Assembly (NCBI RefSeq): GCF_006345805.1
Contig: NC_043007.1
Span: 5,828,001-5,892,000, forward strand
Origin: Octopus sinensis
Lineage: Eukaryota
Direction: 5' to 3'
DNA: 64,000 bases
Part shown: positions 1,426 through 63,806 of the stretch, piece by piece
Position numbering within the stretch: the first letter of the stretch is position 1
Layout of the letters: every line of letters starts with the position of its first letter
Notes under the pieces: generated by a model
The model's input: only the letters and a program-made list of their open reading frames with translations
Database searches by the model: none
Told to the model about the DNA's origin: nothing
Position numbers and translations under genes: made by a program

Positions 1426-1533
1426 GCAAATGTAACTCTGCAAGCACATAAATATATGTTGCTCATGGTTGATCCGGACGAATATCCGCATTCTGATATG
1501 GTGTATTCGCATTGGATAAAGACACATATCACC
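1426..1533 (+). CDS. PEBP4-like paralog A, coding exon 2 (ANVTLQAHKYMLLMVDPDEYPHSDMVYSHWIKTHIT); exon 1 is upstream of the window
   Basis: ttttattag acceptor, gtaagta donor, 108 nt, phase 0/0. Encodes the PEBP signature YxLLMVDPD...HW. Homologous exons at 19273, 41190 and 56490. Confidence 0.92.
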
Positions 1534-3489: not shown

Positions 3490-3538
3490 CCCACACAACT
3501 GAAAGCAGGCGTAACAGCAGATAAAAAAGACGTGATAC
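3490..3538 (+). CDS. PEBP4-like paralog A, coding exon 3 (PTQLKAGVTADKKDVI+C)
   Basis: aatttcag acceptor, gtaagta donor, 49 nt, phase 0/1. Resembles the GADLKKG segment of PEBP4. Homologous exons at 26037, 43244 and 63755. Confidence 0.88.
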
Positions 3539-8084: not shown

Positions 8085-8296
8085 CTTACAAACCCCCTAA
8101 TCCGCACGCTGGAGCCCATCGCTACCAGTTCTTACTGTATCCACAGATACTCGATGCTGTCAAAATAGAACCACAACTGGAATATACTAGATTATTTCAT
8201 ATCGGTGACTTTGAAGTCAAGAACAGTGTATCGTACATATCGAGCTACCAATACGTTATAACTGAAGCAAGGGTGCTTCAACAGCTTCTGATCTGA
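8085..8296 (+). CDS. PEBP4-like paralog A, last exon ((P)YKPPNPHAGAHRYQFLLYPQ...ISSYQYVITEARVLQQLLI*)
   Basis: Polypyrimidine + caacag acceptor, phase 1. Contains the PEBP YxxPxP-GxHRYQF motif. The GPI-like tail of the paralogs is present in a shifted frame (to TAA at 8359-8361). Confidence 0.9.
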
Positions 8297-8382
8297 TCAG
8301 CCAGAGGATTAGTTCTTTCTTTTTGATAATTTTAACATATTTTGACCAATTACTATTGTAAATATTCTACAGAAGAGTATTG

Positions 8383-12017: not shown

Positions 12018-12212
12018 ATGTTCCTCTGGCATGTTTTCCGAGTGAAGATCCTACTGCTTTCTTGCATGGTCTTTCACAGTTTGGCATACTATGCGAATTA
12101 CCTGTGCTCCAGCAAGGACCAGCTGATTCTTCTTCCTAAGAATATATACAAAAAATGTAATGTCGACCTTAGTGTAGCTGATGTAAAGAAACCGCCAACA
12201 GTGAAAGTTCCG
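12018..12212 (+). pseudogene. PEBP4-like paralog B, coding exon 1 (signal peptide MFLWHVFRVKILLLSCMVFHSLA..., two further Cys, ...KKPPTVKVP)
   Basis: ATG to CCG|gtaggt donor, 195 nt, hydrophobic N-terminus. Homologous to 36191-36385 and 47039-47233. The gene carries a nonsense codon in exon 4. Confidence 0.85.
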
Positions 12213-19272: not shown

Positions 19273-19380
19273 GCAAATGCAAATCTGAAAGAAGAACGTT
19301 ATATAATGGTCATTCTTGGTCCAGACGAATGGAAGGAAGCTAATATATCGTCTCCGCATTGGTTGAGGACACACATCAGT
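19273..19380 (+). pseudogene. PEBP4-like paralog B, exon 2 (ANANLKEERYIMVILGPDEWKEANISSPHWLRTHIS)
   Basis: ttttattag acceptor and gtaagta donor, 108 nt, open frame. DPD motif changed to GPD. Confidence 0.88.
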
Positions 19381-24734: not shown

Positions 24735-24762
24735 TAAATATATATATATATATATATATATA

Positions 24763-25853: not shown

Positions 25854-26036
25854 ATATGTACAAGCCTAGATAAGTAACTAAAAGCATGAGAATACATGGA
25901 TAAAAGGTACAAATCTACTAATACATACATAGAAACATAAATGCATGCATAAAGCATACATACATACATACATACATACATACATACATACAATCATACA
26001 TACATACATACATACATACATACATACTAATTTCAG

Positions 26037-26085
26037 CGCGCAGAACTGAAATCAGGCATAACGTCATCATTAAAGGACGCAATAC
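26037..26085 (+). pseudogene. PEBP4-like paralog B, exon 3 (RAELKSGITSSLKDAI+C)
   Basis: aatttcag acceptor and gtaagtg donor, 49 nt, homologous to 3490-3538. Confidence 0.85.
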
Positions 26086-27507: not shown

Positions 27508-28245
27508 CGGATTTTTGAGAGGAGCATCGCCAAGTTGGACACAGCATAGCAGAAATATAGGAACCTATGAACAACAGCTGAAAATTTTAACAAAACTATA
27601 GTAATCTGTTAATAAAACATCACATCGTATTTACGGCGAAGGAATCTATGGAACATCACATCGTAGTTAAGACAGAAAAATCTAGAAATACCTCAAATTT
27701 TTAGCAAACAGAATTCTCTAAAAACATCTGAAATCTTTGAATCTCACACTGTGATATTTCATAATTTGAAGTTAAAGAAAAATGCTTCAAGATTTTGGGG
27801 AAGTCGTTAATTAGCTATCCTATCAACATGACTGCTTACATCAACACTGAAGAGCGAATGGAGAGGAGAGGGCGAAGAGGAAGCAGGTAAGCTCACCGAA
27901 ATTCCAACGTGGGGACAAATTTATGTAGAGAAATCTAGATTTTTGAGAGGAGCGTCACCAAGTTAGACATAACAAAGCGGGCATATATAATCTATGAAGA
28001 ATATGTCAAAGTTTTAAGAAAGCTATAGTAATCTATTTATAAAACATCATATATTTACGATAAAGGAATTTATCAATGGAACTTCACATCGTAGTTAAGA
28101 TAGAAAAATCTATGAATATCTCAAAGGTTTAGAAAATATATAGAGGATACTTTAAAACAACATCTCAAATCTGTGAGTCACACGCAGTGATATTCCTTAA
28201 CACGAAATAATAGAAAGGGCTTACACCTTTTTGAGAGGAGAGTGC
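27508..28245. repeat. Diverged ~430-bp tandem repeat (two units plus the start of a third)
   Basis: gatttttgagaggagc...ctatagtaatct...cacatcgtagttaaga recurs at about 27510 and 27938; ttttgagaggag recurs at about 28228. Confidence 0.65.
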
Positions 28246-28504
28246 AAGAGAAGTGCATATATATGTATGTATACGAACATATACATACATATATATGCAT
28301 ATAGGCACATATTTAAATTAACGATCTTATCCTTATTTATATAAATTCTTATATTTATTTCGTCATTGTATTTACTGTGGTGAAGTTTCAACCATATCGC
28401 ACGAGGAGTTGTAGGCGAGCAATTTAAACTGGTCGTGTGCATACCTGCATATATATGTATGTATACGTTCGTATATGTAAGTATTCGTATGTTGTATGTA
28501 TATG

Positions 28505-28535
<31 letters not shown>

Positions 28536-29696
28536 ATTTATGTTACTATCTGTGTATATTCCACTGACGAGGCAAAGCATTTCTTATGCAAAGTCAGAAT
28601 TCCGGGATCTGGAAATATCCAGTAATTTTTTTGCTAGTTTAATTTGTCTTTTTGTCTTCTCTCCGGATGCTGTATGAACACTTAATGTGGTTTTAGAGTC
28701 GGGAAATCAGAAAATAGAAATAATACTTCACCAACAGATGACGTGCCTAGTGAGCAAAGAGAAATGAATGGATGGCGGTAGTGAAGGCGTAGAGCAAAGG
28801 GATCACATTCGGGTTTACTTTGCACTATGTTAGTCCGACTGCTTTGGGTTGTACTGGAGATCATCAGGAAGTGGGTGCTTCCTGAAGGGTTTACTGCCGA
28901 CACCTAGGATATTGTCCCCTTCGTTCTTTCAGCACAAGGTTTATGCATGCATTTTTGCTGCTGTTGTTTAACAGGGGCACTCTGAGGGAAAATGATTAAA
29001 TGAGTGAGAGAGTAAAAGAAGAAGAGAGAGAGAGTGAGAGAGAGAGAGAGAGACAGTCTACGGCCATTCGAACGCTATCTGCACTGATCTCAAGCCTCGA
29101 CCACGTTTGTCTCTATCACTGTTTCTGTGTAAGTTTCCTGTTGATGTCCTGTTTAATGTCTCTGCAAAGGATTTTCTTTACAGACCAGTCAACTATCCCC
29201 AATGCTGGTGTATCATTACTCATACTGCAGATCTCCTCCCCGGATACTCTTATCCGCCTACTTTATTTTTTCTAAGTCAGACGTAATATTCTCCAGCCAT
29301 TTTGTCTTTATCCATAACACCTTTGTTTAGGTTTTCATCAATGCCTAGATTTTTGTAGCATTGATAGAGAGAAACTGTTGATGAACAGGTTTTGAGTCTG
29401 GGAGACTGAATTTCCACGTTCAAAAATCAAATGTGAACATTCCTTTCGACCAAATTCCATTTCTGTTTCTCAGTGAAAATGTTAACATCAACTGTTTTTA
29501 TGACAATGTAAATATTTTAGCATAAACCTTCAGCCCATCTACAAAGAAAGTATGGGTTGCGTTGGTAAGTCTTGTAGTTGCAGACCCTCGGATATGGCCA
29601 TTCGATTTTTGTAGCAGAAATGATAAGATATGCATATGTTTATATAAATTCAATTTCTGCCACTAATCATTTTTCTTTTCTTTTTCCCTTCAACAG

Positions 29697-29992
29697 CTTA
29701 CAAACCCCATTCTCCGGTTTCTGGACGCCATCGATACTAATTCTTACGGTATCCACATACACGCAATTCTGACATTTTAAAACTGCAATTGACGTTAACT
29801 CGAAGAATTAATGTTACTTATTTTGAAAAATTGAACATGGTATCGCACATAATAAGCTTTCAATACATCATTTCGCAACCAGAAGTTACTTCTGTAAAAG
29901 GAAGCGTTTCAGTCGCTTCTGATCTGATTAACCAGAGAATTAGTTCTTTGTTTATAATAATTTTAACATATTTTGGCCGGTTACTATCGTAA
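29697..29992 (+). pseudogene. PEBP4-like paralog B, last exon with premature TAA (29738-29740) after GRHRY; the frame is otherwise open to a GPI-like tail (...SVASDLINQRISSLFIIILTYFGRLLS*)
   Basis: caacag acceptor. Reads YKPHSPVSGRHRY*FLRYPH; the paralogs have Gln (CAG) at the stop position. Confidence 0.85.
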
Positions 29993-31024: not shown

Positions 31025-31200
31025 TTATTTGTTCTTGACAGACTTTCGTAATTGCCTCAGCAAGTTTGCATACAACTCTCCATTGATGGTGTGGCCATTT
31101 TGAATATAGTCAACCGACTCAATGCCCTTTACATCCTCAAAACACTGAGGCCGCTCCTTTCCTGCTGATGAAGACGAACTTTTCAGCCCACCCTCATATG
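31025..31200 (-). mobile_element. Mariner-like remnant (terminal repeat joined to a transposase fragment)
   Basis: Minus strand begins tatgagggtgggctgaaaagttc and encodes VDYIQNGHTINGELYANLLRQLRKSVKNK. Confidence 0.6.
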
Positions 31201-31458
31201 AATGTATGCGTGTATGTATGTATGTATGTATATGTTGTACGTATGTATGTGTTGTATGTATGAATGTATGAATGTATGTATGTGTTATATGTGTGTATGT
31301 ACGTATGTATGTATATGTTGTATGTATGTATATGTTGTATGTATGTATGCATGTATGTATGTATATGTATGTATATGTTGTATGTATGTATGTATATATG
31401 TATGTACGTATGTATGTATGTATGTATGTATGTATGTATGTATGTATGTATATGTATG

Positions 31459-31490
<32 letters not shown>

Positions 31491-32428
31491 TGTATATGTA
31501 TGTATATGTTGTATGTATGTATGTATGCATGTATGTATGTATATGTATGTATATGTTGTATGTATGTATGTATGTATGTATATGTTGTATGTATGTACGT
31601 ATGTATGTATGTATGTATGTATGTATGTATGCATGTATGTATGTATGTGTGTATGTATGTGTGTGTATGTATGTATATGTATGTATATGTTGTATGTATG
31701 TATGTATGTATGTGTGTATGTATGTATGTATGTATGTATGTATGTGTGTATGTGTGTGTATGTATGTATATGTTGTATGTATGTATGTATGTATGTGTGT
31801 GTATGTATGTATATGTATGTATATGTTGTATGTATGTATGTATGTATGCGTGTATGTATGTATGTATGTATGTATGTGTGTATGTATGTATGTATGTATA
31901 TGTATGTATATGTTGTATGTATGTATGTATGTATATGTTGTATGTATGTACGTATGTATGTATGTATGTATGTGTGTATGTATGTATGTATGTATGTATG
32001 TATGTGTGTATGTGTGTGTATGTATGTATATGTTGTATGTATGTATGTATGTATGTATGTATGTATGTATATGTATGTATATGTTGTATGTATGTATGTA
32101 TGCATGTATGTATGTATGTATATGTATGTATATGTTGTATGTATGTATGTATGTATGTATATGTTGTATGTATGTACGTATGTATGTATGTATGTATGTA
32201 TGTATGTATGTATGCATGTATGTATGTATGTGTGTATGTATGTGTGTGTATGTATGTATATGTATGTATATGTTGTATGTATGTATGTATGTATGTGTGT
32301 ATGTATGTATGTATGTATGTATGTGTGTATGTGTGTGTATGTATGTATATGTTGTATGTATGTATGTATGTATGTGTGTGTATGTATGTATGTATGTATG
32401 CATGTATGTATGTATGTGTGTATGTATG
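31201..32428 (+). repeat. ~1.2-kb compound (TATG)n microsatellite with recurring variant units
   Basis: Directly visible; it explains the six overlapping 370-500 aa YVCM/HTYI ORFs. Confidence 0.97.
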
Positions 32429-33140
32429 TTGATGAAGATGCTGGAGGTGAGTGGTAGGGATAATGATGATGCTTATAAGATCGACGACGATAACGACAAT
32501 TAAAATAAAATATAAATGGCTTGATAGAATATATTCCATCGAGCCATTCTTCCTTCATTAGGATAACTCCCTCCAGAGTCAGGCCCTGGGAGAAAAAGTG
32601 CCATAACTGTTGCCTTGTGTCATCTGAGAAAAAGAAAAAAATATGGAACTAAAAGAGATATCGTCTGAATATTTCTTTTATAACAAGTCTCCTATAATTA
32701 TGGAAAAAGGAGGTATTTGAAGCCGTGCGTTTTTAGGCGTTATGCTTCTTTACAAAAACAAACTTTAATATAACGCCATTTGTGAAATGATGGATTTCAC
32801 GAAAAAGTACTAAGGGAGGTAACTCTAAATTGTATTTATCGTTCAACATCAGTGACGAGTTTATTTGGATTATTTTAGCATTTATTTTATTTTACTGTAA
32901 ACGTTTAATTTACCTGTCAAATTAGTCGAAAGAATTGCACGTGACGTATTTTTAATTTAGTCGGTTCCTTTAATTTTCCACTGTAAGAATCTAAACACAC
33001 ACACACACACACACAAACCCTCCCTTTCAATCCCTCTCTTTCTATCCCTCTCTTTCATTCTTTTTTCTTTCTTTCTATATATATACATATACATATACAC
33101 ACACACATACACACGCATATATATATATATATATATACAC

Positions 33141-36190: not shown

Positions 36191-36385
36191 ATGTTCTTCT
36201 GGAATGTTTTCCGAGGGAAGATCCTACTGCTTTCTTGCATGGTCTTTCACAGTTTGGCATACAATGCGAATGAGAACTTATGCGCCGGGACACAGCTGAT
36301 TCTTCTTCCTAAGAATATATACAAAAAATGTAATGTCGACCTTAGTGTAGCTGATGTAAAGAAACCGCCAACATTGAATGTTCCG
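36191..36385 (+). CDS. PEBP4-like paralog C, coding exon 1 (MFFWNVFRGKILLLSCMVFHSLAYNANENLCAGTQLILLPKNIYKKCNVDLSVADVKKPPTLNVP)
   Basis: ATG to CCG|gtaggt, 195 nt, signal-peptide-like N-terminus. Splices in frame to exons at 41190, 43244 and 45413, giving 645 nt / 214 aa. Confidence 0.9.
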
Positions 36386-38610
36386 GTAGGTTATCTATGA
36401 ATAATACTAGCATTTTGTCTGATTTAGGCCATCAATTAGTGAAAAGACGATGAGTTGATACCATTGTCCCCTTGCTTGATTGCTTCTTTATCTTATCGAT
36501 CTGGAAAGGCTGAAACGCAAAGTTGACCCTGTGTGGGGGATTTGAATGTAAATAGTTGGAAAGCATGTTTCTCGATGCTTTAACAATTCTGCTAGTTCGG
36601 CGCCAGCAGTTTTAAGATGAGGTGATAAGTAGATGCCACAAATTCCACTACTTGACAGCTGCTTTCTTTCATTTCGACACCCAAGGGAATGAAAGGCTAA
36701 GTTAACCCTGGCGGGGTGAAGAGCCGAAAAAGATTGCACGAAACATATTTTTACCTTTGCTCTAAAAATTCTGCCAATGTGTAACAATTTCTGTTATTGG
36801 TGACAAGGGCCCAAAATGTTGTTAACAATGAAAATACAATTAACAAAAACAATAGGAGAATTATTTCGGGTAAAAAGAGCAGAAATCTACAAAAATGACG
36901 AGTGCAAAATGTCAACACGATAAGGTGGCAAGTAAGAAGTAATTCCTCTTGATTAACTCGGAGTATCTTCCACGAAACTCTGGGTGACGCGCATCAAATG
37001 TTAAGTGCGCACTCGTAGTTTGTTGTCTTTTGTTTAGAGTCGTCAAGTCAAAATGGGTTCATTTCGCCTCATCAGACTCGCTGTGTTTATATTTTGTAAA
37101 GACAACGGAGGAGAGTGATTTCCTCCTCCCTTCAACTGTGTACTTTAAGCATTTGATGTGGGCATTGTTCGAGAACATCCTTAACCAAATCCTTTTAACC
37201 GCGTCCAACACAACTTTCTTTACCATAGCCATTTAGTAGAAGTAGGTTAGTCGCCTTTTCTTGTTAATAGAAAGCAGTGGGCCGATCTTACCTTATAGAC
37301 TGGGATGACGGCCGAATCTGTTTTACATGTGATGGCATACATTCGATAGAAACTCACAAATCAGGAAAAAGAGGAATACAGAATAAATAAGTGCTTGATG
37401 TTTCTAGGACACGCCCGACATTGCCAAGACTCCAGAATCGGTAGAGCTTGTCCGGAGCAGACGGTGCTTCTTAACCCCTGTTGTACCGAAAGAGACCAAG
37501 GTCCATTTGGTCGCTTTGAGCAGCAGAGTAAAATCGAAAGTGCATACACTACAATCTGGTCTCGTATTTCCTGAAATATGACCCTGTAGTCAGGTGGTTC
37601 TGCATAACCGCGTGATGCAGACATTAACTATTTCCGCAAGTGTAGTGTTTTCACTTCCTGCTCTGGGTCACCAGCTGTATTTCGTCAAACTCTTCTACAC
37701 TGAAACAGCTTGAGGTGCAACCAGCACCTGGAATTCAGTTGTCATCATCGTACGATTTTGTTGTGAAATGGACTTAAGTTCTACTTCAGTCATAGAACTA
37801 AACACGACCTTGAAGGTGTTACGCTGGTCACTAACCTTCATTATTTGTCGTCTTTAATTAAACGACATCATTGCAAAATGCCGAGACATTTCATGTGGTT
37901 ATGCTCACTGCTCTAGGTTGCTTCTTTCTGTAAATGAAAAGCCACTGTCCAATGGTGTCTTCCTCTCGTCCAGGATGGCACGGCTGATCATACTTCTTAA
38001 AAACGTTTGTTGATTTGAACTGGAGTGGGATACTGCAACTTCTCATCTTCTTAAGACAGATGAAATACCACCAGGCATTTCGCCCGGCGTGCTAACGTTT
38101 CTGCAAGCTGGCCGTGCTAAGCAGTCAAGATATTGTTAGTTATCACAATCACCATTTGATGTCTTTGGCAAAGACATTTAGCTTTTATGAAATGATTCAA
38201 TACGTGTAGCAAACGAATAGGTATTTGAGGGTAAAAACAAATCTCTGCTTTGACACTGGTGACACTGTAACATTGGCGAACGCTTTCATAGTTCACAATG
38301 ATAAATTCAGTTCTTTCGGTGGGTGCAAGAAGGGCGGGCGCAAAAGAGTGACTTACTCTGATGTTGCACGGCGATCGGCGTTTCACTGGTGTCCCTAAAA
38401 ACTATTATGGGTTTCAAGACCCGAACATAATCGTAACAAGTACAGATAAGTATATCAAGTGACGGGTACATTTCCATGCTAGCATGGGTTATTTATTTAC
38501 CCACCTTTCTCTCTGTATCCCCCCTCTTTCTATATATATATTTTAAAAAATATATACATGTGTTGCTGTGTGTGTCAGTATATGTATATATGTATCCGTA
38601 TATATATATG

Positions 38611-38713
<103 letters not shown>

Positions 38714-38715
38714 CA

Positions 38716-38995
38716 GGTGGAGGCGCAATGGCCTAGTGGTTTGGGCAGTGGACTCGCGGAAGATCGCGGTTTCGTTTCCCAGACCGGGCGGTATGAGTGT
38801 TTATTGAGCGAAAACAACTAAAGCTCTGCGAAGCTCCGGCGGGGAATGGTGGCGACCCCTGCTGTACTCTTTCGCCACAACTTTCTCAAACTCTTTCTTC
38901 TGTTGGTCTGCTCGCTTAGCCAGTGGGGTGGCGTTATTTGAAGACTAAGACAATGCGAAGCGCATTGTGACCAGCGATGATCACGGTGATATTAG
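38716..38995 (+). mobile_element. tRNA-derived SINE (paralogous copy at about 49573-49855; a further family member on the - strand at about 50940-51145)
   Basis: gcaatggcc(t/c)agtggtt A-box-like and ggtttcgattcc B-box-like motifs, with a shared body. Confidence 0.7.
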
Positions 38996-39959
38996 ACAGA
39001 ATGGGATAACCAACCCAAGACTGTGAGATGTTTTCAGGACATTTATTATGAAATAGTCTTACTGCTGTTTCTGGAATATTATGGATATCCCTTCATCAGA
39101 AAAAATATCAGAGTTCGAGTTGCTGTAGAAAAATAGGGAATATGGAGAGAAAAAAGGGAATGAAGATATGATGATCTCTGAAGATGATATGTTAAGGTCT
39201 AAACGGCTGATATCAATCATGGAATGCATATTCAAATTCAAGTTGCCTACTTTAGTGAACGTTGCCTTCTTTATCACACCACCACCACAACGATTAATGC
39301 GGTCTTTGCGAAATAGGTTGTAGCCAGCTATGCTGAACCCCGCTTCACACAGTTAGGCATGTGTCCATATTTCTTTGATTGTAATGAAATCGGGGTCGAT
39401 ACCTTTGGCGTAAGATGTACTTTGTTGCACAAGTTATGAGCATTCAAGGACAACAGTTTGTACCTTGATTTCAGTTTACTACGATGTGAAGAGAATGGCG
39501 GGTCGTTCCTATTTTTTCCCGACAGTCTCGACAGTCTTTTCATTGCCAACTGTTGTGGTCACTGTGTGTTCACACCAGCTCGTATCTCTTCCCTATGTTT
39601 CACCATCCTTAATATACAACCCATGGTCGTGTACGCTGAAGCTTTCATGTTGTGCTAAGTTGATATTTAAGGAAGCCACATCACGTAGCTTTGGATGTAC
39701 ATCAGGTGGTAGGCCAGAGCCTATTCTAAAGGTAATCCTATTTTCACGCCTAACTTTATCAGAAGCTAAAAGGTATGAAAATGTCTCAGAAGAGTTTGAA
39801 AAAGACAGCCTGATTAGTCTGAGTTTTGGACCTGATCGACCAAGGCGGAGAGCACCCTTCGGGGAACACAGCCTAGGTCTTTGAATGAGCTGGTAGTAAC
39901 TGCCAGAAGGTCAGCTATATTCTCTCGTACCCCAATGACAATTACTTCATTGCTGACCG

Positions 39960-40455
39960 ACACGCCAGAATGGATATCCCCTTCAACCTAACACAAAGGA
40001 TATGTAACATTAGTTTCTAATGCAAGTACCAGGGACACACGACGATATGAACTAAATGATACACTCATCACCAGAAACTACCCACCTTCACTAATTGACA
40101 TATGCTTCAACGTGCCCTTCAACTCAACAAATTTAAGAAGGATTTACAACCAAAAGCCCTACCATACATCTTTTCTCACACAACTCTCTTAACAATGAAG
40201 CCTTCAACACCATCTTTCACCCCCCCCCCTTGCTAAAAAAGGACCACAAAATGAATTTAATCCTCCAAACACGCCATCATAAAAAGCAAGAGACAGCCCA
40301 AATCTATGAAAAGTCTACTAACACAAGCCCGAAAACGTTCAACAACACTGAAGCTGTCAGTAAAAAAATGCCGACAATCTAACTGTAGGATATTCGTCAA
40401 TTTAATTGAGGGATCAGAGTTCACCTTCAAACAGGGACGTTTCATAGTGAACATA
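39960..40455 (+). mobile_element. Penelope-like fragment related to the 20-21 kb element (duplicate at about 55220-55712)
   Basis: Matches about 20450-20965 (atccccttcaa...gatacactcatcaccag...gagggatcagagttc). Confidence 0.75.
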
Positions 40456-40975
40456 GAAGAATAGTGTTTTGCCAGCGTGCCTTCCCATTGAAGACGACGT
40501 ATGAGTATTCGGGTTCGGGCGAGCGACCGGAACAAATGATTTGTTTATAGAGATAAGATATTTCTGTGCCATGCATTTACTCAAATCGATGTTGTCTGAA
40601 TAGGGTCACAGTGTGCCACGTGGAAGGTGTCGAAGTGATCGCAGTGTAACGTGAGGTGAAATATTCTCCTCAAGAACAAAACGCTCCACAACATCTAGCA
40701 AGTGAAATCAGGATTGGTAAATCTTCTGAGCAACATCTTAACCATACATACACACTCAATAACACTATAAAATGGTCGAAATCTTTCCACAAGAACTTAG
40801 TTCAATTTGAAAACCCCACCAAAATGGACGAAAGCGCTAATATGTAGGATATATGATGTAAGTTATATGATGTATAAAAACATATAATATACAAATAAAT
40901 ATCTGTAACTACAAAACCATCCGAATTTCTGGGTACCTCGTTTCTTCTAAAATACCTGTACATCATCTCCAAACC

Positions 40976-41010
<35 letters not shown>

Positions 41011-41035
41011 AAACATTACGTTATATAATTATTTA

Positions 41036-41095
<60 letters not shown>

Positions 41096-41189
41096 ATGCC
41101 AAATTCCTAATATGTTCACGTGTGTGTATGTATGATTTAATATAATAAATTCCTCCTAATTAAAAAAAAAAACTTTTGTGTTTTATTAG

Positions 41190-41297
41190 CCAAATGCAAG
41201 TCTGAAAGCAGAATTTTATTTACTGGGCCTGTTTCATCCAGAGGCATACAAGGAAGCTAATATAGTCTACCCGCATTGGATGAGGACACATATCAAT
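41190..41297 (+). CDS. PEBP4-like paralog C, exon 2 (PNASLKAEFYLLGLFHPEAYKEANIVYPHWMRTHIN)
   Basis: ttttattag acceptor and gtaagta donor, 108 nt. DPD replaced by HPE, HW retained. Confidence 0.9.
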
Positions 41298-42002
41298 GTA
41301 AGTATGATAGATATTTTTATGAAACGTATCTTTTTATGCAGATGTGTGCATTCGTGCATGCAACTGTCAATTTTAGCACCAAAATGCATAGATAATTTCA
41401 CAAATTCGAACGCACCACACACATGCACACACGCATACAAGCAAACAGGCATACACATTCCCATTCGTATGTGTGTGTGGGAGGCAGCGTGTATCGAACC
41501 TGCATTATCAGTATCCCCTGTTTATTCACGTTCGTTTAATTTAATTTAATTTAATTTATTTATTTTTTTTTATCTACTTACTTTCTCATTTCTTTTTTGA
41601 TTTGCATTTATCTAATTCAATTTAATTTATTATATTTTGTTTATGTATATAATTATTTGGGCCTTGAGAAACACCGGCGGTTTCCTGAACCCGCATCTGT
41701 TTCTAGTCTATATAAACGACATTTCAGGCGTAATAAAGGACAGCAAAGTGAAAATATTCGCCGACAACTCTAAGCTCCATAAACTTATCAACGGAGAAGA
41801 CCAAACTGAATTCCAGTCTGATCTACATGCTGGAAGTCAATGAGCAGACAAAAACAAAATGCAACTAAACGAGAGATAATCTGAGATTATGCACTTTGGA
41901 AGAATTACTATGCTAAAACAACCATATTATCTTCCTACAGGTGACCCGCTCACAGCGTATGATAATATCAGAGACCTGGGAGTGACTGTTGACAACAACC
42001 TC

Positions 42003-42096
<94 letters not shown>

Positions 42097-42097
<1 letters not shown>

Positions 42098-43088
42098 TGA
42101 GATCTGGGGACTGTGGTGGCCAGATAAGATGTTCAACTTCACTAGAATGTTCATTGTGTCATTCAGTAACAACTTTAGCTGTGTGGATCGATGCATTATC
42201 TTCCTGATAGTTTGCGTTTCCCTCACGAAACTTCTCTGAAACCATAGAATGAATTTGATCAGATAAAATGCTTAAATAGTCTTGAGTATTAATTTTTACT
42301 TGAAGGGAAACCATTAGGCCGGCAGATTTACAAGATATAGCCCCGTCCCAAGTCATCAGAAATCTTCCTCCATGTTTAACTGTTCGAAGATGGCAGTTTG
42401 GGTCAATGATTATTTTGGCTGTCTCCACATGTCTACTCGGTTGGTGGAAATACGGTAAAGGATGATTCGTCGGAGAAAGTAACATTCTTCCACTGTTCTA
42501 GGGATCAATTCTGTAGGCTGTTACTCCACTCTAAACACTTTGCAACATTTGTTTTTGAAAGTAGTGGTTTCTTGGCTGTAGACCTGGCGTGAAATCCGGT
42601 TTTTGTAGAAACAGGGTTCTCGAGGCGGTCATAAAGCTCGGCAGTAATTTTAAGAGCTGTGCTTTTGAAAGCTATTCTGACAATTCACGGAACATTAATA
42701 AAGTCTGAAAGATTTGGTTTTCGCCCGGTGTTTGGTTTCGGCGAGGATGTTCTTTTCCTCTTTCTCAAAGGCTGTCATTATTTACGAGGCAGTACTTCTT
42801 GAGACATCAAACATTTCGGCTGCTTTCGTTATGCTAGCGCCTGCCATGTAGGCACCAACAATTTGACCTCTTTGAAAGTCCGATACATCTGTCATTTTAA
42901 TGAATTTCAATTACCTTTTTCTGATGACATCTCAAAAGAAACAGCAATTTTAGCAAAAAATATTAAGCAACACTAATAATAAATACAAAAAAAACATAAA
43001 TATAAAGAAGTCTTTGACGGTTTTACAGATATTTCAAAATTATGATGCTATGATGCTAGGCGTTTCCACTATTTTGTCCTACACCTGT
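42097..43088 (-). mobile_element. Tc1-like transposon remnant (paralog C intron 2)
   Basis: TVKHGGRFLMTW, YQEDNASIH and WPPQSPDL motifs; same insertion as at 24763 and 62548. Confidence 0.85.
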
Positions 43089-43243
43089 ATATGTACAAGC
43101 CTAGATAAGTAACTAAAAGCATGAGAATACATGGATAAAAGGTACGAATCTACTAATACATACATAGAAACATACATGCATGCATACATACATATAATAC
43201 ATAAGTATATTTCATAATATATATATATATATTATAATTTCAG

Positions 43244-43292
43244 CGCACAACCCTGCTAAAAGGCATAATACCAGCATCACGCGACGCAATAC
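43244..43292 (+). CDS. PEBP4-like paralog C, exon 3 (RTTLLKGIIPASRDAI+C)
   Basis: aatttcag acceptor and gtaagta donor, 49 nt, phase 0/1. Confidence 0.87.
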
Positions 43293-45412
43293 GTAAGTAC
43301 TATTTTCACTACGTTATTTACATTATTTACATTCGATGGATATTTGCCCTCATTTTGTTTGTTGTTAAAATATGACGTTTCTGCTGATATACCCTCAGCC
43401 TTCATCAGGTGTCTTGGGGGAATTTCGAACGTGGGTTCTCTATTATTATTATTATCATTATTATTATTACTATTATCATCATCATTATTATTATTAGTAG
43501 TAGTAGTGCTAGTAGTATTAACATCCGTTTTCGCCGTACTCCGGGCTTCCTCGGAAGCGGGGTGGTTCGTATCCTGGTTTATGCTGGTTACACTGTTAGT
43601 CGTACGGGTGTGCTACATGTGCTGTCCCGTTCGGTGTTAGTGTTGCCGCTGCATTGACTTTATGCTATGATTATACATATTTAGGTTGTAAGAATTAAGT
43701 TTTCGCTGATTCGATGAAGTAACAACAGATTCTATTTTGGGCGGAGAGGAGGAGGATTCTTTCTGAGTAGATTTATTGACGATTGAATGCTAAATATTAA
43801 CTAAACAACAAATATTCTATACACACACACACACACACACACATATTTTTGTACGTATGTGCATGTGTGTGTAGGAGGAGGAGAAGAAGAGAGTAGAAGA
43901 AAAAGAAGGTGGGGGAGGAGGGAGAAGAAGAGGGGGATAGGAGAAAGGATGAAAAGGGAAAAGAACGAGAAAGCGAGAACGAATACTTGGAAGGGAAAGA
44001 CGTGTAATGTGGGGAATAAGGAGAGCGATCCTACAATCGCCAGGATCAAATTACAACGGACAAGTGAAAAGGAAATGCTGGCGTAGATCCTTAAATATCT
44101 GGTGATATAATAACGAAAGATAGCGAACTTGTGGTTGAGTGGCGCAGGCCCGGTCGTCATCCGGAGACTACTTGTACACAAAGCCAGAAGCAGAGAAGGT
44201 GATGGGATGAGGAGGCAAACCGAACGGTGATTGAATGCCGAATCAGGCGTGAACCCAGTAGAAGGGGATTCCGAACGCGAATGAAAGCGAAAGTGAATGA
44301 AATAGGACTCTTCGAAATAAGTGAGCAGGCAAGTGCAATAGGAGCCAAAGAGTGGTTAACAGACATGGAAATTGAAGAGATGAAAAGGAAATGAGAAAAT
44401 AGAAATAATACTTCACCAACAGATGACGTGCCTAGTGAGCAAAGAGAAATGAATGGATGGCGGTAGTGAAGGCGTAGAGCAAAGGGATCACATTCGGGTT
44501 TACTTTGCACTATGTTAGTCCGACTGCTTCGGGTTGTACTGGAGATCATCAGGAAGTGGGTGCTTCCTGAAGGGTTTACTGCCGACACCTAGGATATTGT
44601 CCCCTTCGTTCTTTCAGCACTAGGTTTATGCATGCATTTTTGCTGCTGTTGTTTAACAGGGGCACTCTGAGGGGAAATGATTAAGTGAGTGAGAGAGTAA
44701 AAGAGGTAGAGAGAGGAAGAGAGAGAGAGAGGTAGAGAGAGGAGGTGAGAGAGAGAGAGAGAGAGACAGTCTACGGCCATTCGAACGCCATCTGCACTGA
44801 TCTCAAGCCTCGACCACGTTTGTCTCTATCACTGTTTCTGTGTAAGTTTCCTGTTGATGTCACGACTGGCTTTAATGTCTCTGCAAAGGATTTTCTTTAC
44901 AGACCAGTCAACTATCCCCAATGCTGGTGTATCATTACTCATACTGCAAATCTCCTCATCGGATACTCTTATCCGCCTACTTTATTTTTTCTAAGTCAGA
45001 CGTAATATTCTCCAGCCATTTTGTCTTTATCCATAACACCTTTGTTTAGGTTTCCATCAATGCCTAAATTTTTTAAGCATTGATAGAGAGAAACTGTCGA
45101 TGAACAGGTTTTGAGTCTGGGAGACTGAATTTCCACGTTCAAAAATCAAATATGAACATTCCTTTCGACCAAAATTCATTTATTTCTGTTTCTCAGTGAA
45201 AATGATAACTTCAACTGTTTTTATGACAACGTAAATATTTTAGCATAAACCTTCAGCCCATATACATTATGGGTTACGGTGGTAAGTCTTGTAGTTACAG
45301 ACCTCGGATGTGGCCATTCGATTTTTGTAGCAGAAATGATAAGATATGCATATGTTTATATAAGTTCAATTTCTGCCACTAATCATTTTTCTTTTCTTTT
45401 TCCCTTCAACAG

Positions 45413-45705
45413 CTTTCAAACCCCCTTCTCCGGTGGGTGGACTCAATCATTTTCAGTTCTTGATGTATCCACATACACGCAATGCTATAGCGTCCGTCCC
45501 TAAGCTGGCATCAACTCGACGAATGGATATGGCTATCTTTGAAAGAGAGAACAACATAAAGCACATAATGAGCTTTCAATACACCATTTCTCTACCAGGA
45601 TCACCTACTGCAGAAGAAGCATCAACAGCTTCTGATCTGATCAACCAGAGAATTAGTCCTTTATCTATTTTAATTTTAACATATTTTGCCCAGTTACTAT
45701 ACTAA
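45413..45705 (+). CDS. PEBP4-like paralog C, last exon ((P)FKPPSPVGGLNHFQFLMYPH...AEEASTASDLINQRISPLSILILTYFAQLLY*) with GPI-anchor-like signal
   Basis: caacag acceptor, 293 nt, open frame. Ends in small residues (ASTAS), a polar spacer and a terminal hydrophobic stretch with no cytoplasmic tail. Confidence 0.9.
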
Positions 45706-45720
45706 TTAATCTACAGAAGA

Positions 45721-47038: not shown

Positions 47039-47233
47039 ATGTTCTTCTGGAATGTTTTCCGAGGGAAGATCCTACTGCTTTCTTGCATGGTCTTTCACAG
47101 TTTGGCATACTATGCGAATGAGAACTTATGCGCCAGACCACAGCTGGTTATTCTTCCTAAGGAAATATACAAAAAATGTGATATCGTTCTTAAGAAAGAA
47201 GATGTAAAGAAACCGCCAACAGTGAAATTTCCG
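47039..47233 (+). CDS. PEBP4-like paralog D, coding exon 1 (MFFWNVFRGKILLLSCMVFHSLAYYANENLCARPQLVILPKEIYKKCDIVLKKEDVKKPPTVKFP)
   Basis: ATG to CCG|gtaggt, 195 nt. PTVKFP resembles PEBP4 PIVKFP. Confidence 0.9.
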
Positions 47234-52379: not shown

Positions 52380-55215
52380 GAAATCAGGTGTTGTGTTGCT
52401 ACCTTCAGGCAGCATAGAGGTATTAAAGAATGCAATGTCTCTGCAACTAACAACTCATGCAGGTAGTTTGTTCCATGTTTCAGCAAATCTGAGTGTGAAA
52501 AAATGTTTCCGAAAGTAATGGGAGTTATGCCCTTTTCTGACTTTGTAGGTATGCCCACGTGTGTTGACACATGGAGCTCAAAAACCTGCTCATTGTGATT
52601 CCTGGCACGATGGTTGATAATTTTGTGGGAGCTTACCAAGTCAGTTGCCAGACGTCGGAGCTTCAAGGTATCTAGGCCCAAGGAAGCAAGGCGTTCAGAA
52701 TATGGCAGATGCGTGATGGAGGGTATTCGCTTGGTTGTACGCCTCTGAACAATTCCAGGAGGTCAACATCCTGAGCAAGACAGTGGTTCCAGACTGGTAA
52801 TGCAAGTTCCGAGTGTGGCCGCCCTATAGCCATATATAGCTGGGGAGCGGCTGACAAATGTCTTGCTGAGTGATGCCAAGACACCGTCGGTCTTCTTGAC
52901 AATTTTAGAAATGTGCTTTGTCCATCGCAATTCGCTACCGACAGTAATGCCTAGTTCACGCTCACAAAAATACTTGATATTAGTGTTGTGGAGAGAGTAT
53001 GTGCACGCTGAGCTTTTCCTCCCAAATTGTTAGTGCGGTACACTTGCCCACAGCCAGCTTCAGCTGCCAGTCCGTGGTCCATGGTTGCATTGTTTCCAGG
53101 TCCGATTGCATGAAAGATCTATAGTGTTCAAGATCTGTCCTTTTTATCTCAAGGTACAGCTTGATGTAATCTGCATATTTCAGCACTGCGGCATTCTTTT
53201 TGTTGGCATCTATGTCATTAATGTATGCAAAAAACAAAAAGGCACCAAGAACAGATTCCTTTTGTATGCCAAATACCTCAGGGTGAACAACGCTGTACTA
53301 GAAGCGGGACTACCACTTTTCGGCTGAGATTGAAGGACTCCAGCCTGTTAAAAAGATCATCGTTCACGACCGGATAAGGTTGTGAGAAATGCAGAAGTGC
53401 CAGAGTGTTACAGGATTCCATCTGTCTGGCAATGCAGCTAGCAAGACTGATTGGACGATAGTTGATGAGTGACATACGGTCACGCATTTTGAATAGAGGA
53501 ATAACACTGGCAGTTTTCCACTGCTCCGGAGTAGCACCTTTGTTAAGATAGAAATGAAAGGAGATTGAAATCTGGTGAAGAAGAAAGTACCCACTACGGT
53601 ATATAACACCATCAAGCCCAGGAGGGACATAAGTTGCGCTTATTCCGAAGGAGACGTCGCAGCAATGCAGGTGTAAATTCCATAGTTGTTGTGGATTTTG
53701 TGCCAGACGTGGTGGAAATGGTAAGTTTTGGTTTTCAATCGTACAAATGCCTTCATAGCCTTCAGCAATGAGTTTTGTGCATTCTTTGGGATCGTTAGTA
53801 GTCTGGCTTGTTTGTGCATTGTGAAGAGGACCAACAATTGAGTGAGGTCTCTGCTTTGAACGTACATATTTCCAGAACACCTTACTGTCAAGGTTGCCTG
53901 CTCCGCGCTGCTCAAATTCAAGCACTGCCTTTTTGTCACCTCCTTGAGATGATTGGATTATTTATTGCGCTTTTACCTATTTATATCTGATTTATGCAGT
54001 TTGTATTCCCCTTCAGCATTACGTCATTCTTTCCTGGCAAGGCTGACTGCTGAAGTCTTCCAAGTTGCACTTTTGGGATGTTTTTTGTGCTTACATGATA
54101 CTGATGCTGCACATGCTGTCCATATTGAGTTCAAGATGTTCTGAAGTATAGTGCTCACATCTCCAGAGTCGTAAAATTCCAGCCATTTTGGCCTCTGTAG
54201 CTCGATGCATTAAGAGTTCCTGTCTACTTTATTCCAGTCGACGCGAGCATTTTGGAGATGGCTGTGGTTTTTGTTACTGCCCATCAGGGACAGATTGGCA
54301 ATGCTCATAGCATGACCAGAGTCACCTAACGGTTCCTCAGTAGTAATACTAATAGCCATTTCAGGAGTAGCGATAAGGAGTAGACCCAAAGTATTGTCAC
54401 CTCCACTTGGGGAGTTGACTAATTAGACCCAGTTCGAGTACAGCACTAGCTCAATGAAATCATTTGCATTTCGCAGCTAATGAAAGATATCCCAATCAAT
54501 CTCAGGGTGATTTAAGTCACCTGCAATAAAACGTAAGTGGCTGTTTTCCTGGCGGCAGTTCTCATAATATTACAAAGTTGTGTGTCCCGATGGTAACTTG
54601 GTGGAGAGGTAAACAACTCCAAGTAGAAGTGCTGACGTGGTCAAACGTAAAAATACTTCTCGTGATTGGTTCAAATCAATGCAAGGAATTACTGAAAAGT
54701 TTGAACGAGCATAGACCATCACATCGGCACCACAACGATGAATGCGGTCTTTGCGAAATAGGTTGTAGCCAGCAATGCTGAACCCCGCTTCATACAGTTA
54801 GGCATGCGTCCATATTTCTTTGATTGTAATGAAATCGGGGTCGATACCTTTGGCGTAAGAATCAAAAGAGATGTACTTTGTTGCACAAGTTATGAGCATT
54901 TAAGGACAACAGTTTGTACCTTAATTTCAGTTTACTACGATGTGAAGGGAATGGCGGGTCGTTCCGATTTTTTCCGACAGTCTTTTCATTGCCAACTGTT
55001 GTGGTCACAGTGTGTTCACACCATCTCGTATCTCTTCCATATGTTTCACCAGCCTTAATATACAACCCATGGTCGTGTACGCTGAAGCTTTCATGTTGTA
55101 CTAAGGAAGCCACATCACGTAGCTTTGGATGTACATCAGGAGGTAGGCCAGAGCGTATTCTAAAGATAATCCTATTTTCACGCCTAAATTTATCAGAAGC
55201 TAAAAGGTATGAAAA
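52380..55215 (-). mobile_element. Degenerate CR1-like LINE (APE endonuclease + RT) in paralog D intron 1; only its 5' part survives in C (about 39280-39900)
   Basis: AGDLNHP, NTLGLLL, FWKYV, PPGLDG, WKTASVIPLFK, NYRPISL, YINDI...YADYIKL, LKLRRLATDL. Confidence 0.85.
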
Positions 55216-56349
55216 TGCCTCAACCTAACAGAAAGAATAGGTACTATTAGTTTCTAATGCAAGCACCAGGGACACACGACGATATGAACTAAATGATACA
55301 CTCATCACCAGAAACTACCCACCTTCACTAATTGACATATGCTTTCAACCTGCCCTTCAACTCAACATCCAGGATCTCAGACATCCCAAATTTAAGAAGG
55401 ATTTACAACCAAAAGCCCTACCATACATCTTCTCTCACTCAACTCTCTTAACAATGAAGCCTTCAACACCATCTTTCACCCCCCCCCCTTGCTACAAAAG
55501 GACCACAAAATGAAATTAATCCTCCAAACACACCATCATATAAAGCAAGAGACAGCCCAAATGTATGAAATGTCTCCTAACACAAGCCCGAAAACGCTCA
55601 ACAACACTGAAGCCGTCAGTAAAAAAATGCCGACAATCTAACTGTAGGATATGCGTCAATTTAATTGAGGGATCAGAGTTCTCCTTCAAACAGGGACGTT
55701 TCATAGTGAACATAGAAGAGTAGTGTTTTGCCAGCGTGCCTTCCCATCGAAGACGACGTATGAGTATTCAGGTTCTGGCGAACGACCGGAACAAATGATT
55801 TATTTATAGAGATAAGATATTTCTGTGCCATGCATTTACTCAAATCGATGTTGTCTGAATAGGGTCACAGTGTACCACGTGGCAGGTGTCGAAGTGATCG
55901 CAGTGTAACGTGAGGTGAAATATTCTCCTCAAGAACAAAACGCTCCACAACATCTAGCAAGTGAAATCAGGATTGGTAAATCTTCTGAGCAACATCTTAA
56001 CCATACATACACACTCAATAACACTATAAAATGGTCGAAATCTTTCCACAAGAACTTAGTTCAATTTGAAAACCCCACCAAAATGGACGAAAGCGCTAAT
56101 ATGTATGATATATGATATAAGTTATATGATGTATAAAAACATATAATATACAAATAAATATCTGTAAATACAAAACCATCCGAATTTCTGGGTACCTCAT
56201 TTCTTCTAAAATACCTGTACATCATCTCCGAACCTTCTAATATATGTACACACATATATATGTATATATATTTAAAACATTACGTTATATAATTGTTGAT
56301 AATATATATATATATATATATTTAAAACATTACGTTATACAATTATTTA

Positions 56350-56489: not shown

Positions 56490-56597
56490 CCAAATGCAAG
56501 TCTGAAAGCAGAATATTATATACTGGGCCTGTTTCATCCAGAGGCATATAAGGAAGCTAATGTAGTCTACCCGCATTGGATGAGGACACATATCAAG
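56490..56597 (+). CDS. PEBP4-like paralog D, exon 2 (PNASLKAEYYILGLFHPEAYKEANVVYPHWMRTHIK)
   Basis: ttttattag acceptor and AAG|gtaagta donor, 108 nt. Confidence 0.9.
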
Positions 56598-56807: not shown

Positions 56808-58404
56808 CAATGTTCAGCACGGCATCGTTTTCGTCAGAAGTAGGTGTTTTATTTTCTATAATTTTCGCAGACCATAAATATCATATCAATTGTTATTGTC
56901 TGAGATTTTGGTGTAATTTGAGAGGATAATAGAAAAGTTATGCATGATTTAGTGATTTACTGAAAAACAAATGGCGGCCAAAATGATTAGAACGGTTGCT
57001 TATACTCAGTGTTTTAGTATATTTAACCGGCGAACTCTAATGTTTTGAATTTGTTTACGTGACGGTTCGTTTACTAAACATTAGTAAGAGTATCTGCAGC
57101 GTACTTTGTTAATATAATGCCACTTACTCCGTTACCAATTCGTCAGCAGATTATTAAGCTTCGAAAGAAGGATAATTTAAGTATTGGATCTATTGCAAAG
57201 ATTGTTAACAAGTCAAAAAGTGTAGTACACGGTATTCTTAAGGTTGACGATGATTGTGGTTCATGTGAAGCAAGAAAGTCTACAGGTAGGCCAAGAAAAA
57301 CGACCAGGAGAGAAGATCGTGCTATGGTAAATTTGGTTAAAAAGCACAGATTTTAAACTGCTGCTGCTGTTTCTTCGGGATATGAGCATTGTACTGAAGA
57401 AAACTTTATTTCGAAAAACTGTGTCTCGTCGTGTAGTTGAACATAACCTACAAGCAAGAGCACCTGCAGTGAAGTCAGTGATCATCTCCAAGAATAAAAA
57501 GTGTCGTCTTACCTTTGCAACCGAACATGTGTTGTGGTCTCAAGGAAAATGGCAAACGGTGCATTTCCGTGATGTATCTAAGTTGATGTTATTTGCCTCA
57601 GATGAGAAAAGCTACGTTTGTCGAAAAGTAGGTGAAAAATTGTCGCCTTAATGCCTAAAGACTAGTGTTAAATTCGGTGGGGGAAGTGTCATGGTTTGGG
57701 GGATGATATCTGGAGATGGTGTGCGCCCTATGGTGCGATTACATGGAAAGGTAAATGCAGGAGTTTATAAACAACTTGTAAAAGATCATGTCTTGCCTTT
57801 GCTAAGAAATTCAACTAAGCGACCACCCATATTTATGCAGGACAAAGCCCCATGTCACATGGCTAAAGTGGTCATGAACTTTCACAAGGCTGAAAAGATT
57901 ATTGTTATGCATTGGCCTGCTCCAAGCCCAGATCTTAATCCTATTGAAAATGTTTGGAATATTCTAGGAGAACGTTCGAAAGCCAGAAATCCTAAAACAA
58001 CCGAGCAATTATGGAATGTCCTTCAGGAAGAATGGAATAAGATCACCCAGCAAGAAATTGAAAATTTATTTCCTCATGCAGTCGAAGATGTCAAAGTGTG
58101 ATTGAAGCTAAAGGGCTTCACACTAAATATTAAATAATTCCAGTATTCTCTATCATTTTTGATTATTTTGTAATTTTTTTCAACCGTTCTGATAATTTTA
58201 GCCGCCATGGGTTTTGCAGTAAATCACTAAATCATACATAACTTTTGTATTATCCTCTAAAATTACACCAAAATCTCAGACAATAATAATTCATGTCCTC
58301 TTTATTGTTTGTTTAAATTATAGAACATAAAACAACTTTGATAAAAACTTATACTTTATTTTCTGACGAAAACAATGTCGTTCTGAACATTTTGGCCGCA
58401 CTTG
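56808..58404 (+). mobile_element. Near full-length Tc1-family transposon with ~200-bp IR/DR-type terminal inverted repeats; transposase pseudogene at about 57117-58133
   Basis: TA-flanked. Arms about 56808-56998 and 58181-58404 are reverse complements. Motifs GRPRKTT, VMVWG, FMQDKAPCH and SPDLNPIENVW, with stops and frameshifts. Confidence 0.92.
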
Positions 58405-62508: not shown

Positions 62509-62547
<39 letters not shown>

Positions 62548-62550
<3 letters not shown>

Positions 62551-63754: not shown

Positions 63755-63806
63755 CGCTCAGAGCTGCAACAAAGTGGCGTAACACCAGCATCACGCGACT
63801 CAGTAC
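63755..63806 (+). CDS. PEBP4-like paralog D, exon 3 (RSELQQSGVTPASRDSV+C); last exon expected beyond the window
   Basis: aatttcag acceptor and gtaagta donor, 52 nt (one extra codon, frame preserved). Confidence 0.87.

What the first reader, a model, noticed from the sequence alone, without database searches (positions are those of the whole stretch)
41190..45460. Stepwise rewiring of the PEBP ligand pocket across the array
Established: the DPDxP and GxHR motifs and the HW His line the conserved anion/ligand-binding pocket of PEBPs. Seen: A has MVDPDEY / GAHRYQF (canonical), B has ILGPDEW / GRHRY, C has LFHPEAY / GLNHFQF and D has LFHPEAY. The HW is kept in all four. C changes both motifs together yet remains fully open, which suggests a new ligand specificity rather than decay. 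The His-rich pocket of C (HPE, HW, NH) could bind a metal or a different small molecule (speculative).
Basis: partly seen in the sequence, partly recalled or inferred. Interest (0 to 1): 0.72.

Follow-up and report, generated by a model that had tools for sequence, protein, structure and literature searches.

The report
Octopus PEBP array with rebuilt pocket
An octopus tandem gene array encodes fast-evolving, probably surface-anchored relatives of PEBP4, and one intact, spliced copy has replaced four of the five pocket residues that are almost invariant in this ancient family, so it probably binds something new, though a metal site is unlikely.

Summary
The motifs are real. The window holds four tandem, four-exon PEBP4-like genes from an Octopus. 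Copy C (36191-45705) is an open 214-codon gene with a signal peptide and a GPI-type tail. Its last intron is spliced out in contigs of two independent runs, so it is transcribed. C keeps only 1 of the 5 near-invariant charged PEBP residues (D70>H, D72>E, H118>N, R119>H; H86 kept). Exons evolve far faster than introns (exon 4 core 31-37% versus 4-6%; omega about 1.8, p 0.003-0.01), which points to diversifying selection rather than decay. Best reading: a positively selected, cell-surface, non-canonical PEBP binding protein. Ligand and tissue are unknown, and C itself could not be folded.

The parts
36191..36385 (+). Copy C exon 1: signal peptide (about residues 1-23), Cys pair, N-terminal part of the PEBP domain; mosaic, 5' half D-like and 3' half B-like
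   Evidence: hydropathy peak in windows starting at residues 9-13; 14 vs 1 and 15 vs 2 informative sites
41190..41297 (+). Copy C exon 2: HPEAY in place of DPDxP (His 41235, Glu 41241) and HW (His 41274)
   Evidence: last 30 nt seen joined to exon 3 in runs X5 and X1
43244..43292 (+). Copy C exon 3 (49 nt, phase 0 to 1)
   Evidence: joint 43292>45413, GT..AG, in X5 and X1
45413..45705 (+). Copy C exon 4: GLNHF in place of GxHRY (Asn 45445, His 45448, Phe 45451), rest of the domain, and a GPI-type tail (small residues near Ser188, spacer, 17 uncharged residues to the stop)
   Evidence: 0 other letters over 45413-45575 in spliced X1 record 1
1426..1533 (+). Copy A exon 2 (DPDEY, HW); exon 1 lies upstream of the window
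   Evidence: Pfam PBP E 0.0056, below the curated cut-off
3490..3538 (+). Copy A exon 3
   Evidence: identical in translation to O. vulgaris P0001 residues 27-42
8085..8361 (+). Copy A exon 4 (GAHRY): all five charged residues kept; the frame stops at 8294-8296 after a frameshift near 8271, and the tail continues out of frame to 8361
   Evidence: Pfam PBP E 0.0013
12018..12212 (+). Copy B exon 1
19273..19380 (+). Copy B exon 2 (GPDEW, HW)
   Evidence: 100% identical in translation to parts of P0008 and P0010
26037..26085 (+). Copy B exon 3
29697..29992 (+). Copy B exon 4 with in-frame TAA at 29738 after GRHRY: probable pseudogene or null allele
47039..47233 (+). Copy D exon 1
56490..56597 (+). 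Copy D exon 2 (HPEAY, HW)
63755..63806 (+). Copy D exon 3 (52 nt, one codon longer); exon 4 is beyond the window

Best explanation
C is an expressed member of an octopod tandem array derived from a secreted PEBP4-like parent. Shown: intact frame, splicing of exons 2-3-4, loss of 4 of the 5 charged signature residues, and accelerated protein evolution across the array. Inferred: the protein enters the secretory pathway, is tied to the outer membrane by a GPI anchor, and keeps the PEBP beta-sandwich. Its pocket no longer does the family's anion-binding (or proposed catalytic) job. D70, H118 and the Y120 hydroxyl are lost and the rim becomes aromatic (Tyr at 74 and 84, Phe at 120, His at 70 and 86), while the D72-R119 bridge is swapped conservatively for E-H, which would keep the loop in place. 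It most likely works as a non-catalytic surface binder of a different, less anionic ligand or partner. Copies diversify by duplication, gene conversion and positive selection, with turnover (B dead, A tailless), as recognition or defence families do.
For: Splice joint in 2 of 4 laid runs (two studies), not listed in the two large genomic-looking runs. Intron 3 divergence 3.8-6.3% versus exon 4 core 31-37%. Four-fold sites B-C 2 of 52 and C-D 0 of 40, versus codon positions 1+2 at 24% and 11.5%. Codon-model omega 1.82 on the mature domain; omega = 1 rejected at p 0.003-0.010 in 4 of 4 tests. Signal peptide C-D 0 changes in 24 codons. P71, W87, F123 and 20 other columns invariant. The hydrophobic tail is shared with O. 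vulgaris P0001 and Argonauta P0003 and absent from the parent P0007. Models of P0003 (pLDDT 78) and P0001 (pLDDT 80) have PEBP folds as top hits. Pocket and salt-bridge roles from PMC3338619, PMC8793217 and PMC10848944.
Against: C itself was not folded. No ligand, tissue or protein evidence. No GPI or signal-peptide predictor was run. Gene conversion is present: it can homogenise introns and bias omega upward. Pairwise Nei-Gojobori tests were mostly not significant (C-B p 0.075, C-D p 0.094, A-C p 0.60; exon 4 core dN/dS 0.93). The pocket changes are not in excess of background (P = 0.39). The P0001 fold matches are weak (best E 0.008). The HPE codons were not themselves displayed in the spliced contigs.
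Confidence: 0.5

Rival explanations
1. The pocket is irrelevant in C. The fold serves as a scaffold for protein-protein contact, for example protease inhibition or cell or gamete recognition. Selection acts on surface loops and the pocket residues simply drifted.
For: Pocket sites changed at the background rate (P = 0.39). The highest dN/dS is in exon 3 and mature exon 1, not exon 2. A PEBP-family protease inhibitor complex is solved (1wpx). A parent-like PEBP4 is listed in the O. vulgaris posterior salivary gland proteome (PMC7693380 Table S5).
Against: H86 is kept in all four window copies; the D72/R119 pair changes together and conservatively; site 70 takes D, N, G and H across copies, as a specificity site would.
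Confidence: 0.2
2. Relaxed constraint: C is a young, still transcribed duplicate on the way to pseudogene, like B.
For: B has a stop and A a frameshift; conversion can mimic selection; no C-type protein was returned by four database searches.
Against: Neutral decay predicts omega near 1 and exon divergence equal to intron divergence, but the observed values are about 1.8 and 5- to 8-fold higher. About 25% nucleotide change from B leaves no stop in C, and the scaffold is invariant. A C-like exon 4 with only 6 other letters in 240 is present under another organism label (X8).
Confidence: 0.15
3. One reading: His70, His86, Glu72 and His119 form a metal site (Zn or Cu) on a secreted or surface protein.
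For: Three His and one Glu lie at the signature positions; the location is extracellular.
Against: By family structure the residues fall in two places: 70, 86 and 118 at the rim, 72 and 119 on the shoulder. The rim has His-His-Asn and has lost its Asp. The review PMC8793217 does not use the word 'metal'. The geometry could not be measured here.
Confidence: 0.08
4. If PEBPs are enzymes (PMC8793217), C has a rebuilt active site with a new reaction, as a GPI-anchored ecto-enzyme.
For: The signature sites stay polar and ionisable (H, E, H, N, H) rather than random.
Against: The enzyme idea is itself unproven for the family. Loss of D70, H118 and R119 fits a pseudo-enzyme better, as with mL38.
Confidence: 0.07

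Closest known systems
Octopus PEBP4-like parent (O. bimaculoides XP_014771394.1 = P0007; O. vulgaris/sinensis LOC115215108 = P0011)
   Same: Signal peptide, Cys pair, same domain layout; 32-35% identical to C.
   Different: Keeps all five charged residues and 9 of 11 human pocket residues; no hydrophobic tail; in O. vulgaris it is on a different contig (118.9 Mb) from the array models (99.98 Mb).
Argonauta hians GAB1609584.1 (P0003) and O. vulgaris CAI9729628.1 (P0001)
   Same: Aromatic residue at site 74, hydrophobic C-terminal tail, same clade as A-D (100/99).
   Different: P0003 keeps all five charged residues; P0001 has N70 and L86; neither has the H70/E72/N118/H119 set. Both are unnamed automatic models.
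Mitoribosomal mL38 and plant PYBHB
   Same: The only two groups that PMC8793217 (section 6) names as having multiple replacements of the five residues, read there as new functions.
   Different: These are not tandem, secreted or tail-bearing; yeast mL38 still needs its Asp/Arg pair (PMC10848944).
Expanded or secreted insect PEBPs (whitefly 202 genes, 127 in tandem clusters; mealybug 46 secreted; fly A5)
   Same: Lineage-specific tandem expansion and secretion of PEBPs (passages).
   Different: Independent expansions; the passages read do not describe GPI-type tails, loss of the signature or positive selection (whole texts not read).
Human PEBP1/RKIP pocket
   Same: Motif register allows the mapping of sites 70-123.
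   Different: C matches 3 of 11 mapped pocket residues; models of relatives end in a strand and tail rather than the helix that carries Y181.

Membership tests
PEBP/RKIP/FT/YbhB family (Pfam PF01161) | Sequence homology to the PBP domain | tested here: met
   Met through a chain: P0007, P0011 and P0003 pass the Pfam cut-off; joined C scores 115 bits over 166 of 172 positions of their profile, best shuffle 3.0. C's single exons gave no Pfam hit.
PEBP/RKIP/FT/YbhB family (Pfam PF01161) | Five near-invariant charged residues (D70, D72, H86, H118, R119) | tested here: not met
   C keeps 1 of 5; A 5 of 5; B 4 of 5; D 1 of the 3 visible (definition).
PEBP/RKIP/FT/YbhB family (Pfam PF01161) | PEBP beta-sandwich fold | tested here: inconclusive
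   C could not be submitted as a spliced protein. Proxies: P0003 top hit 1beh, E 7e-6; P0001 top hits mL38, CEN, FT and PEBP1, best E 0.008.
PEBP/RKIP/FT/YbhB family (Pfam PF01161) | Anion or phosphoryl ligand binding in the pocket | not testable with these tools
   Needs a binding assay; predicted to be lost.
PEBP4-like secreted subgroup | N-terminal signal peptide and descent from a PEBP4-named gene | tested here: inconclusive
   Hydropathy peak in the first 23 residues, read by eye, no predictor. The parent is named PEBP4 by NCBI and a parent-like protein has human PEBP4 as Swiss-Prot hit. No tree with vertebrate PEBP4 was built.
GPI-anchored proteins | Signal peptide, small-residue omega site, spacer and terminal hydrophobic stretch without cytosolic tail | tested here: inconclusive
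   Last 17 residues: 0 charged, 12 hydrophobic; Ser-Thr-Ala 26 residues from the end; tail shared with P0001 and P0003. The rule is recalled and no predictor or experiment was run.
His-cluster metal-binding site | Three or more ligands converging in one site | tested here: inconclusive
   Mapping to the published pocket list puts only two His at the rim and the third at the salt-bridge position; no coordinates were available.
Pseudogene | Frame break or silence, neutral evolution | tested here: not met
   C is open, spliced, and omega is above 1. Met for B (stop at 29738).

The most novel reading that the evidence does not exclude
Octopods have turned PEBP into a GPI-anchored, positively selected surface repertoire in which each copy carries a different pocket (D, N, G or H at site 70; H or L at 86; H or N at 118), and the C/D type has a newly built His/Glu site for a metal, a new small-molecule class or a new reaction. 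Exon mosaics, and possibly splicing across copies (automatic model P0010 joins a non-B exon 1 to B's exons), would widen the repertoire. It would be a natural mutant series for finding what the ancient PEBP pocket does.
Probability: 0.15. Interest if true: 0.75.

Novelty: new variant of a known kind. Interest (0 to 1): 0.5.

Why it matters
The function of the PEBP pocket is still open, and multiple losses of its five signature residues were reported for only two groups (PMC8793217). Here an intact, transcribed animal copy has lost four of them, beside sister copies that keep five or four and a canonical parent: a natural series for ligand or activity tests. It also flags an unannotated, fast-evolving, probably surface-anchored octopod gene family, a pattern typical of defence, chemosensory, reproductive or venom-gland genes. 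Tandem and secreted PEBP expansions are already known in insects, so the array as such is not new.

Tried and rejected
No whole genome is held for this window, so the rest of the array and D's exon 4 could not be read. A conserved stretch at 45200-45300 first looked like exon 3 but has stops or the wrong phase; the spliced contigs skip it. Searches for a C-type protein returned none: C exon 4, longer proteins, 0 of 72 candidates; profile of exon 4s, 6 hits, one of them an unrelated fish repeat protein (P0002) that I dropped; 7 of 1942; 2 of 163. These blanks are weak evidence. ESM Atlas gave no usable hit for C exon 4. Exon-only profiles against PDB sequences gave only non-significant hits. 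No RNA holder is listed on record for the stretch; runs X9-X24 hold next to none of its words, which proves nothing. Contig depth was not used to rank expression. The first codon-model script failed to read omega and gave a void test; it was redone. The venom-evolution paper PMC7656900 has no PEBP term in its main text. Earlier scan notes: none. No complex prediction was run because no partner is indicated.
Full report
Setting. The window is eukaryotic, AT-rich and full of microsatellites and transposon remnants. Self-comparison shows a tandem array on the + strand. Named database proteins match window exons at up to 100% (O. sinensis XP_036362932.1 and O. vulgaris CAI9729632.1 against B's exon 2), so the source is an Octopus close to these species. 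No whole genome was available.

Gene models. Each copy has four exons of 195, 108, 49 (52 in D) and about 293 nt with AG/GT ends and matching phases. C runs 36191-36385, 41190-41297, 43244-43292 and 45413-45705 and gives 214 codons without a stop. A lacks exon 1 in the window and D lacks exon 4. B has TAA at 29738, directly after GRHRY. The O. sinensis automatic model of B (P0010) uses another last exon inside intron 3, which fits the same stop but may not be independent. A's frame ends at 8294 after a shift in a short G run near 8271, and the tail seen in B, C and P0001 continues in another frame; this may be a real loss or a sequencing error. C begins with a hydrophobic stretch and ends in 17 uncharged residues preceded by small residues. 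By recalled rules this is a signal peptide plus a GPI signal; no predictor was run.

Transcription. Eight runs of four studies hold the exon 4 stretch, none on record as RNA. Four were laid on 43240-45720. The joint 43292>45413 with GT..AG ends, exactly the predicted intron, is in one contig each of X5 (depth 4660) and X1 (depth 13.6), and is not listed for X4 (about 76% read) or X8, which look genomic. In both, the loose end before exon 3 is the last 30 nt of C's exon 2, which differs from D, B and A at 1, 5 and 6 places. The loose parts are 108 nt (the length of exon 2) and 152 nt. X1's contig has no other letters over 45413-45575, so GLNHF is in the spliced form. The HPE codons and exon 1 were not displayed, so their presence is inferred from length. 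Contig depth cannot rank genes, and tissue is unknown. X1 also holds another spliced paralogue with a D-like exon 3 end, 18 other letters and 12 gaps in exon 4; X4 holds a similar variant. X8 (another organism label) has a C-like exon 4 with 6 other letters in 240; whether GLNH is kept there was not shown, because the table was cut.

Relatives. The searches returned only octopod relatives, apart from one unrelated fish protein that I dropped. They fall in two clades (100/99): a canonical parent without tail (P0007, P0011, P0006) and a tailed group (Argonauta P0003, O. vulgaris P0001, A-D). The tail and an aromatic residue at site 74 are therefore probably older than the Octopus-Argonauta split, though P0003 is a long branch of unsure place. 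O. vulgaris models add two more exon 2 types (INPDEF with LW; IDADEF with HW), so the array has at least six copies. No C-type protein was returned. P0007, P0011 and P0003 pass the Pfam PBP cut-off, and P0007 hits 26 distinct PDB sequences led by PEBP-family chains. AlphaFold models of P0003 and P0001 (pLDDT 78 and 80) match PEBP folds, strongly for P0003 (E 7e-6) and weakly for the truncated P0001 (E 0.008). C itself was not folded.

The pocket. PMC8793217 (abstract and sections 5 and 6 read) defines five near-invariant residues, three at the cavity rim and two in a salt bridge above it, and names only mL38 and plant PYBHB as groups with multiple replacements. PMC10848944 (passages) confirms the Asp-Arg bridge. 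PMC3338619 (passages) lists 16 pocket residues of human PEBP1, including D70, H86, H118 and Y120 but not D72 or R119. Mapped by motif register, not by superposition, C has H70, E72, H86, N118, H119 and F120: 1 of 5 kept. Of 11 mappable pocket residues the parent matches 9, A 5, B 4 and C 3. So most remodelling (sites 74, 84, 108, 112) predates C and already affects A. The rim of C holds two His and an Asn with no acid, and the third His replaces the bridge Arg opposite a Glu. This argues against a His-rich metal pocket and for a retained bridge with a more aromatic, less anion-friendly cavity (inference).

Stepwise? The tree is (A,(B,(C,D))), in array order, which gives the idea some support. 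But site 70 is GAT in A, GGT in B and CAT in C/D: two separate single changes from Asp, not a path. P0001 has Asn there and loses H86. B is broken, and C's exon 1 is a B/D mosaic. The pattern is a radiation with conversion and turnover. With 37% identity between A and C, four or more changes in five sites has probability 0.39, so the pocket is released from constraint but not shown to be specially targeted.

Selection. Intron 3 (44790-45412) differs by 25 of 590, 37 of 585 and 23 of 613 sites between A, B and C, while the exon 4 core differs by 61, 67 and 57 of 182. Four-fold sites differ at 2 of 52 (B-C) and 0 of 40 (C-D), against 24% and 11.5% at codon positions 1 and 2; for pairs with A the four-fold counts are small and higher (3 of 16, 3 of 18, 2 of 9). 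C-D non-coding divergence is 264 of 5721 against 36 of 352 in exons. A one-ratio codon model gives omega 1.82 for the mature domain, and omega = 1 is rejected at p 0.003-0.010 in all four tests, with kappa on a grid in the null. Against this: of five whole-pair Nei-Gojobori tests only B-D reached p < 0.05, exon 4 core dN/dS was 0.93 by that method, some intron flanks are as diverged as exons, only four partial sequences were used, and gene conversion can inflate such tests. I read the sum as good but not final evidence of diversifying selection.

How it most likely works. A secreted PEBP4-like parent was duplicated to a new locus, gained a GPI-type tail and expanded in tandem. Copies are displayed on a cell surface and diverge fast in the mature domain while the signal peptide stays fixed. 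C has given up the anion-binding signature and probably binds another ligand or partner without catalysis (0.5). Rivals: protein-contact scaffold with a drifting pocket (0.2), decay (0.15), metal site (0.08), new enzyme (0.07). A parent-like protein (69.8% to P0007) is listed in the O. vulgaris posterior salivary gland proteome (PMC7693380, passages and one supplement row; the file was cut when stored, so array members may be in the part not seen). This is the only tissue hint, and it concerns the parent.

Novelty. Searches for PEBP with octopus (2 holders, 1 listed, on a sea slug), with cephalopod (0), with salivary gland (none of the 20 listed of 204 held both PEBP and octopus), with GPI (20 of 62 listed, listing only) and for six accession numbers (0) found no description of this array. 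The library lacks most subscription papers, and supplements were mostly not seen. Tandem and secreted PEBP expansions are known in whitefly, mealybug and flies (passages of PMC5157087, PMC13732444, PMC10510153 and PMC7414772). PMC7656900 was term-searched only. Interest 0.5.

Noticed in passing
window 8258-8361: Copy A's tail is out of frame after a short G run; the out-of-frame part matches P0001's tail in length. Either a natural switch from anchored to secreted or a homopolymer error.
   Followed up: partly
window 36191-36385: C exon 1 is a mosaic: 14 of 17 informative sites group with D in the 5' half and 15 of 19 with B in the 3' half; break near 36292-36299.
   Followed up: yes
P0010 and P0008 against window 19273-28904: Automatic models join an exon 1 that is not B's to B's exon 2 (P0010), or chain exon 2 of A and B (P0008); P0010 ends in an exon inside B's intron 3 (28821-28904). 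Annotation artefact or splicing across copies.
   Followed up: no
run X1 record 5 and X4 records 13 and 15 on window 45357-45596: Further paralogues not in the window: one spliced, with a D-like exon 3 end and 12 gap positions in exon 4; another with 18 other letters and no gaps.
   Followed up: no
window 45658, 45665, 45496: Variants in public runs change tail residues (Pro>Ser, Ser>Phe) and Val146>Ile; the first two are in about half the depth of X5 and all of X4 and X8.
   Followed up: partly
window 20007-21283: Reverse transcriptase plus GIY-YIG fragments (Penelope-like element) in B's intron 2; a similar stretch lies at 39959-40438 and 55209-55697.
   Followed up: no
window 23281-26103, 41641-43310, 61978-63824: A shared composite insertion in intron 2 of B, C and D (96-98% alike in its first 400-570 nt), with a 500-nt tandem duplication in B (23716-24744).
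   Followed up: no
window 31197-32429: A 1.2-kb TATG satellite next to a mariner transposase fragment; it creates six long spurious ORFs.
   Followed up: partly
window 57691-58101 and 60292-61428: Tc1-type DDE_3 fragment and a LINE-type zf-RVT fragment in D's intron 2.
   Followed up: no
P0003 (Argonauta): The tailed Argonauta copy keeps all five charged residues but breaks the PP motif and the Gly of GxHR, a different route of pocket change.
   Followed up: partly
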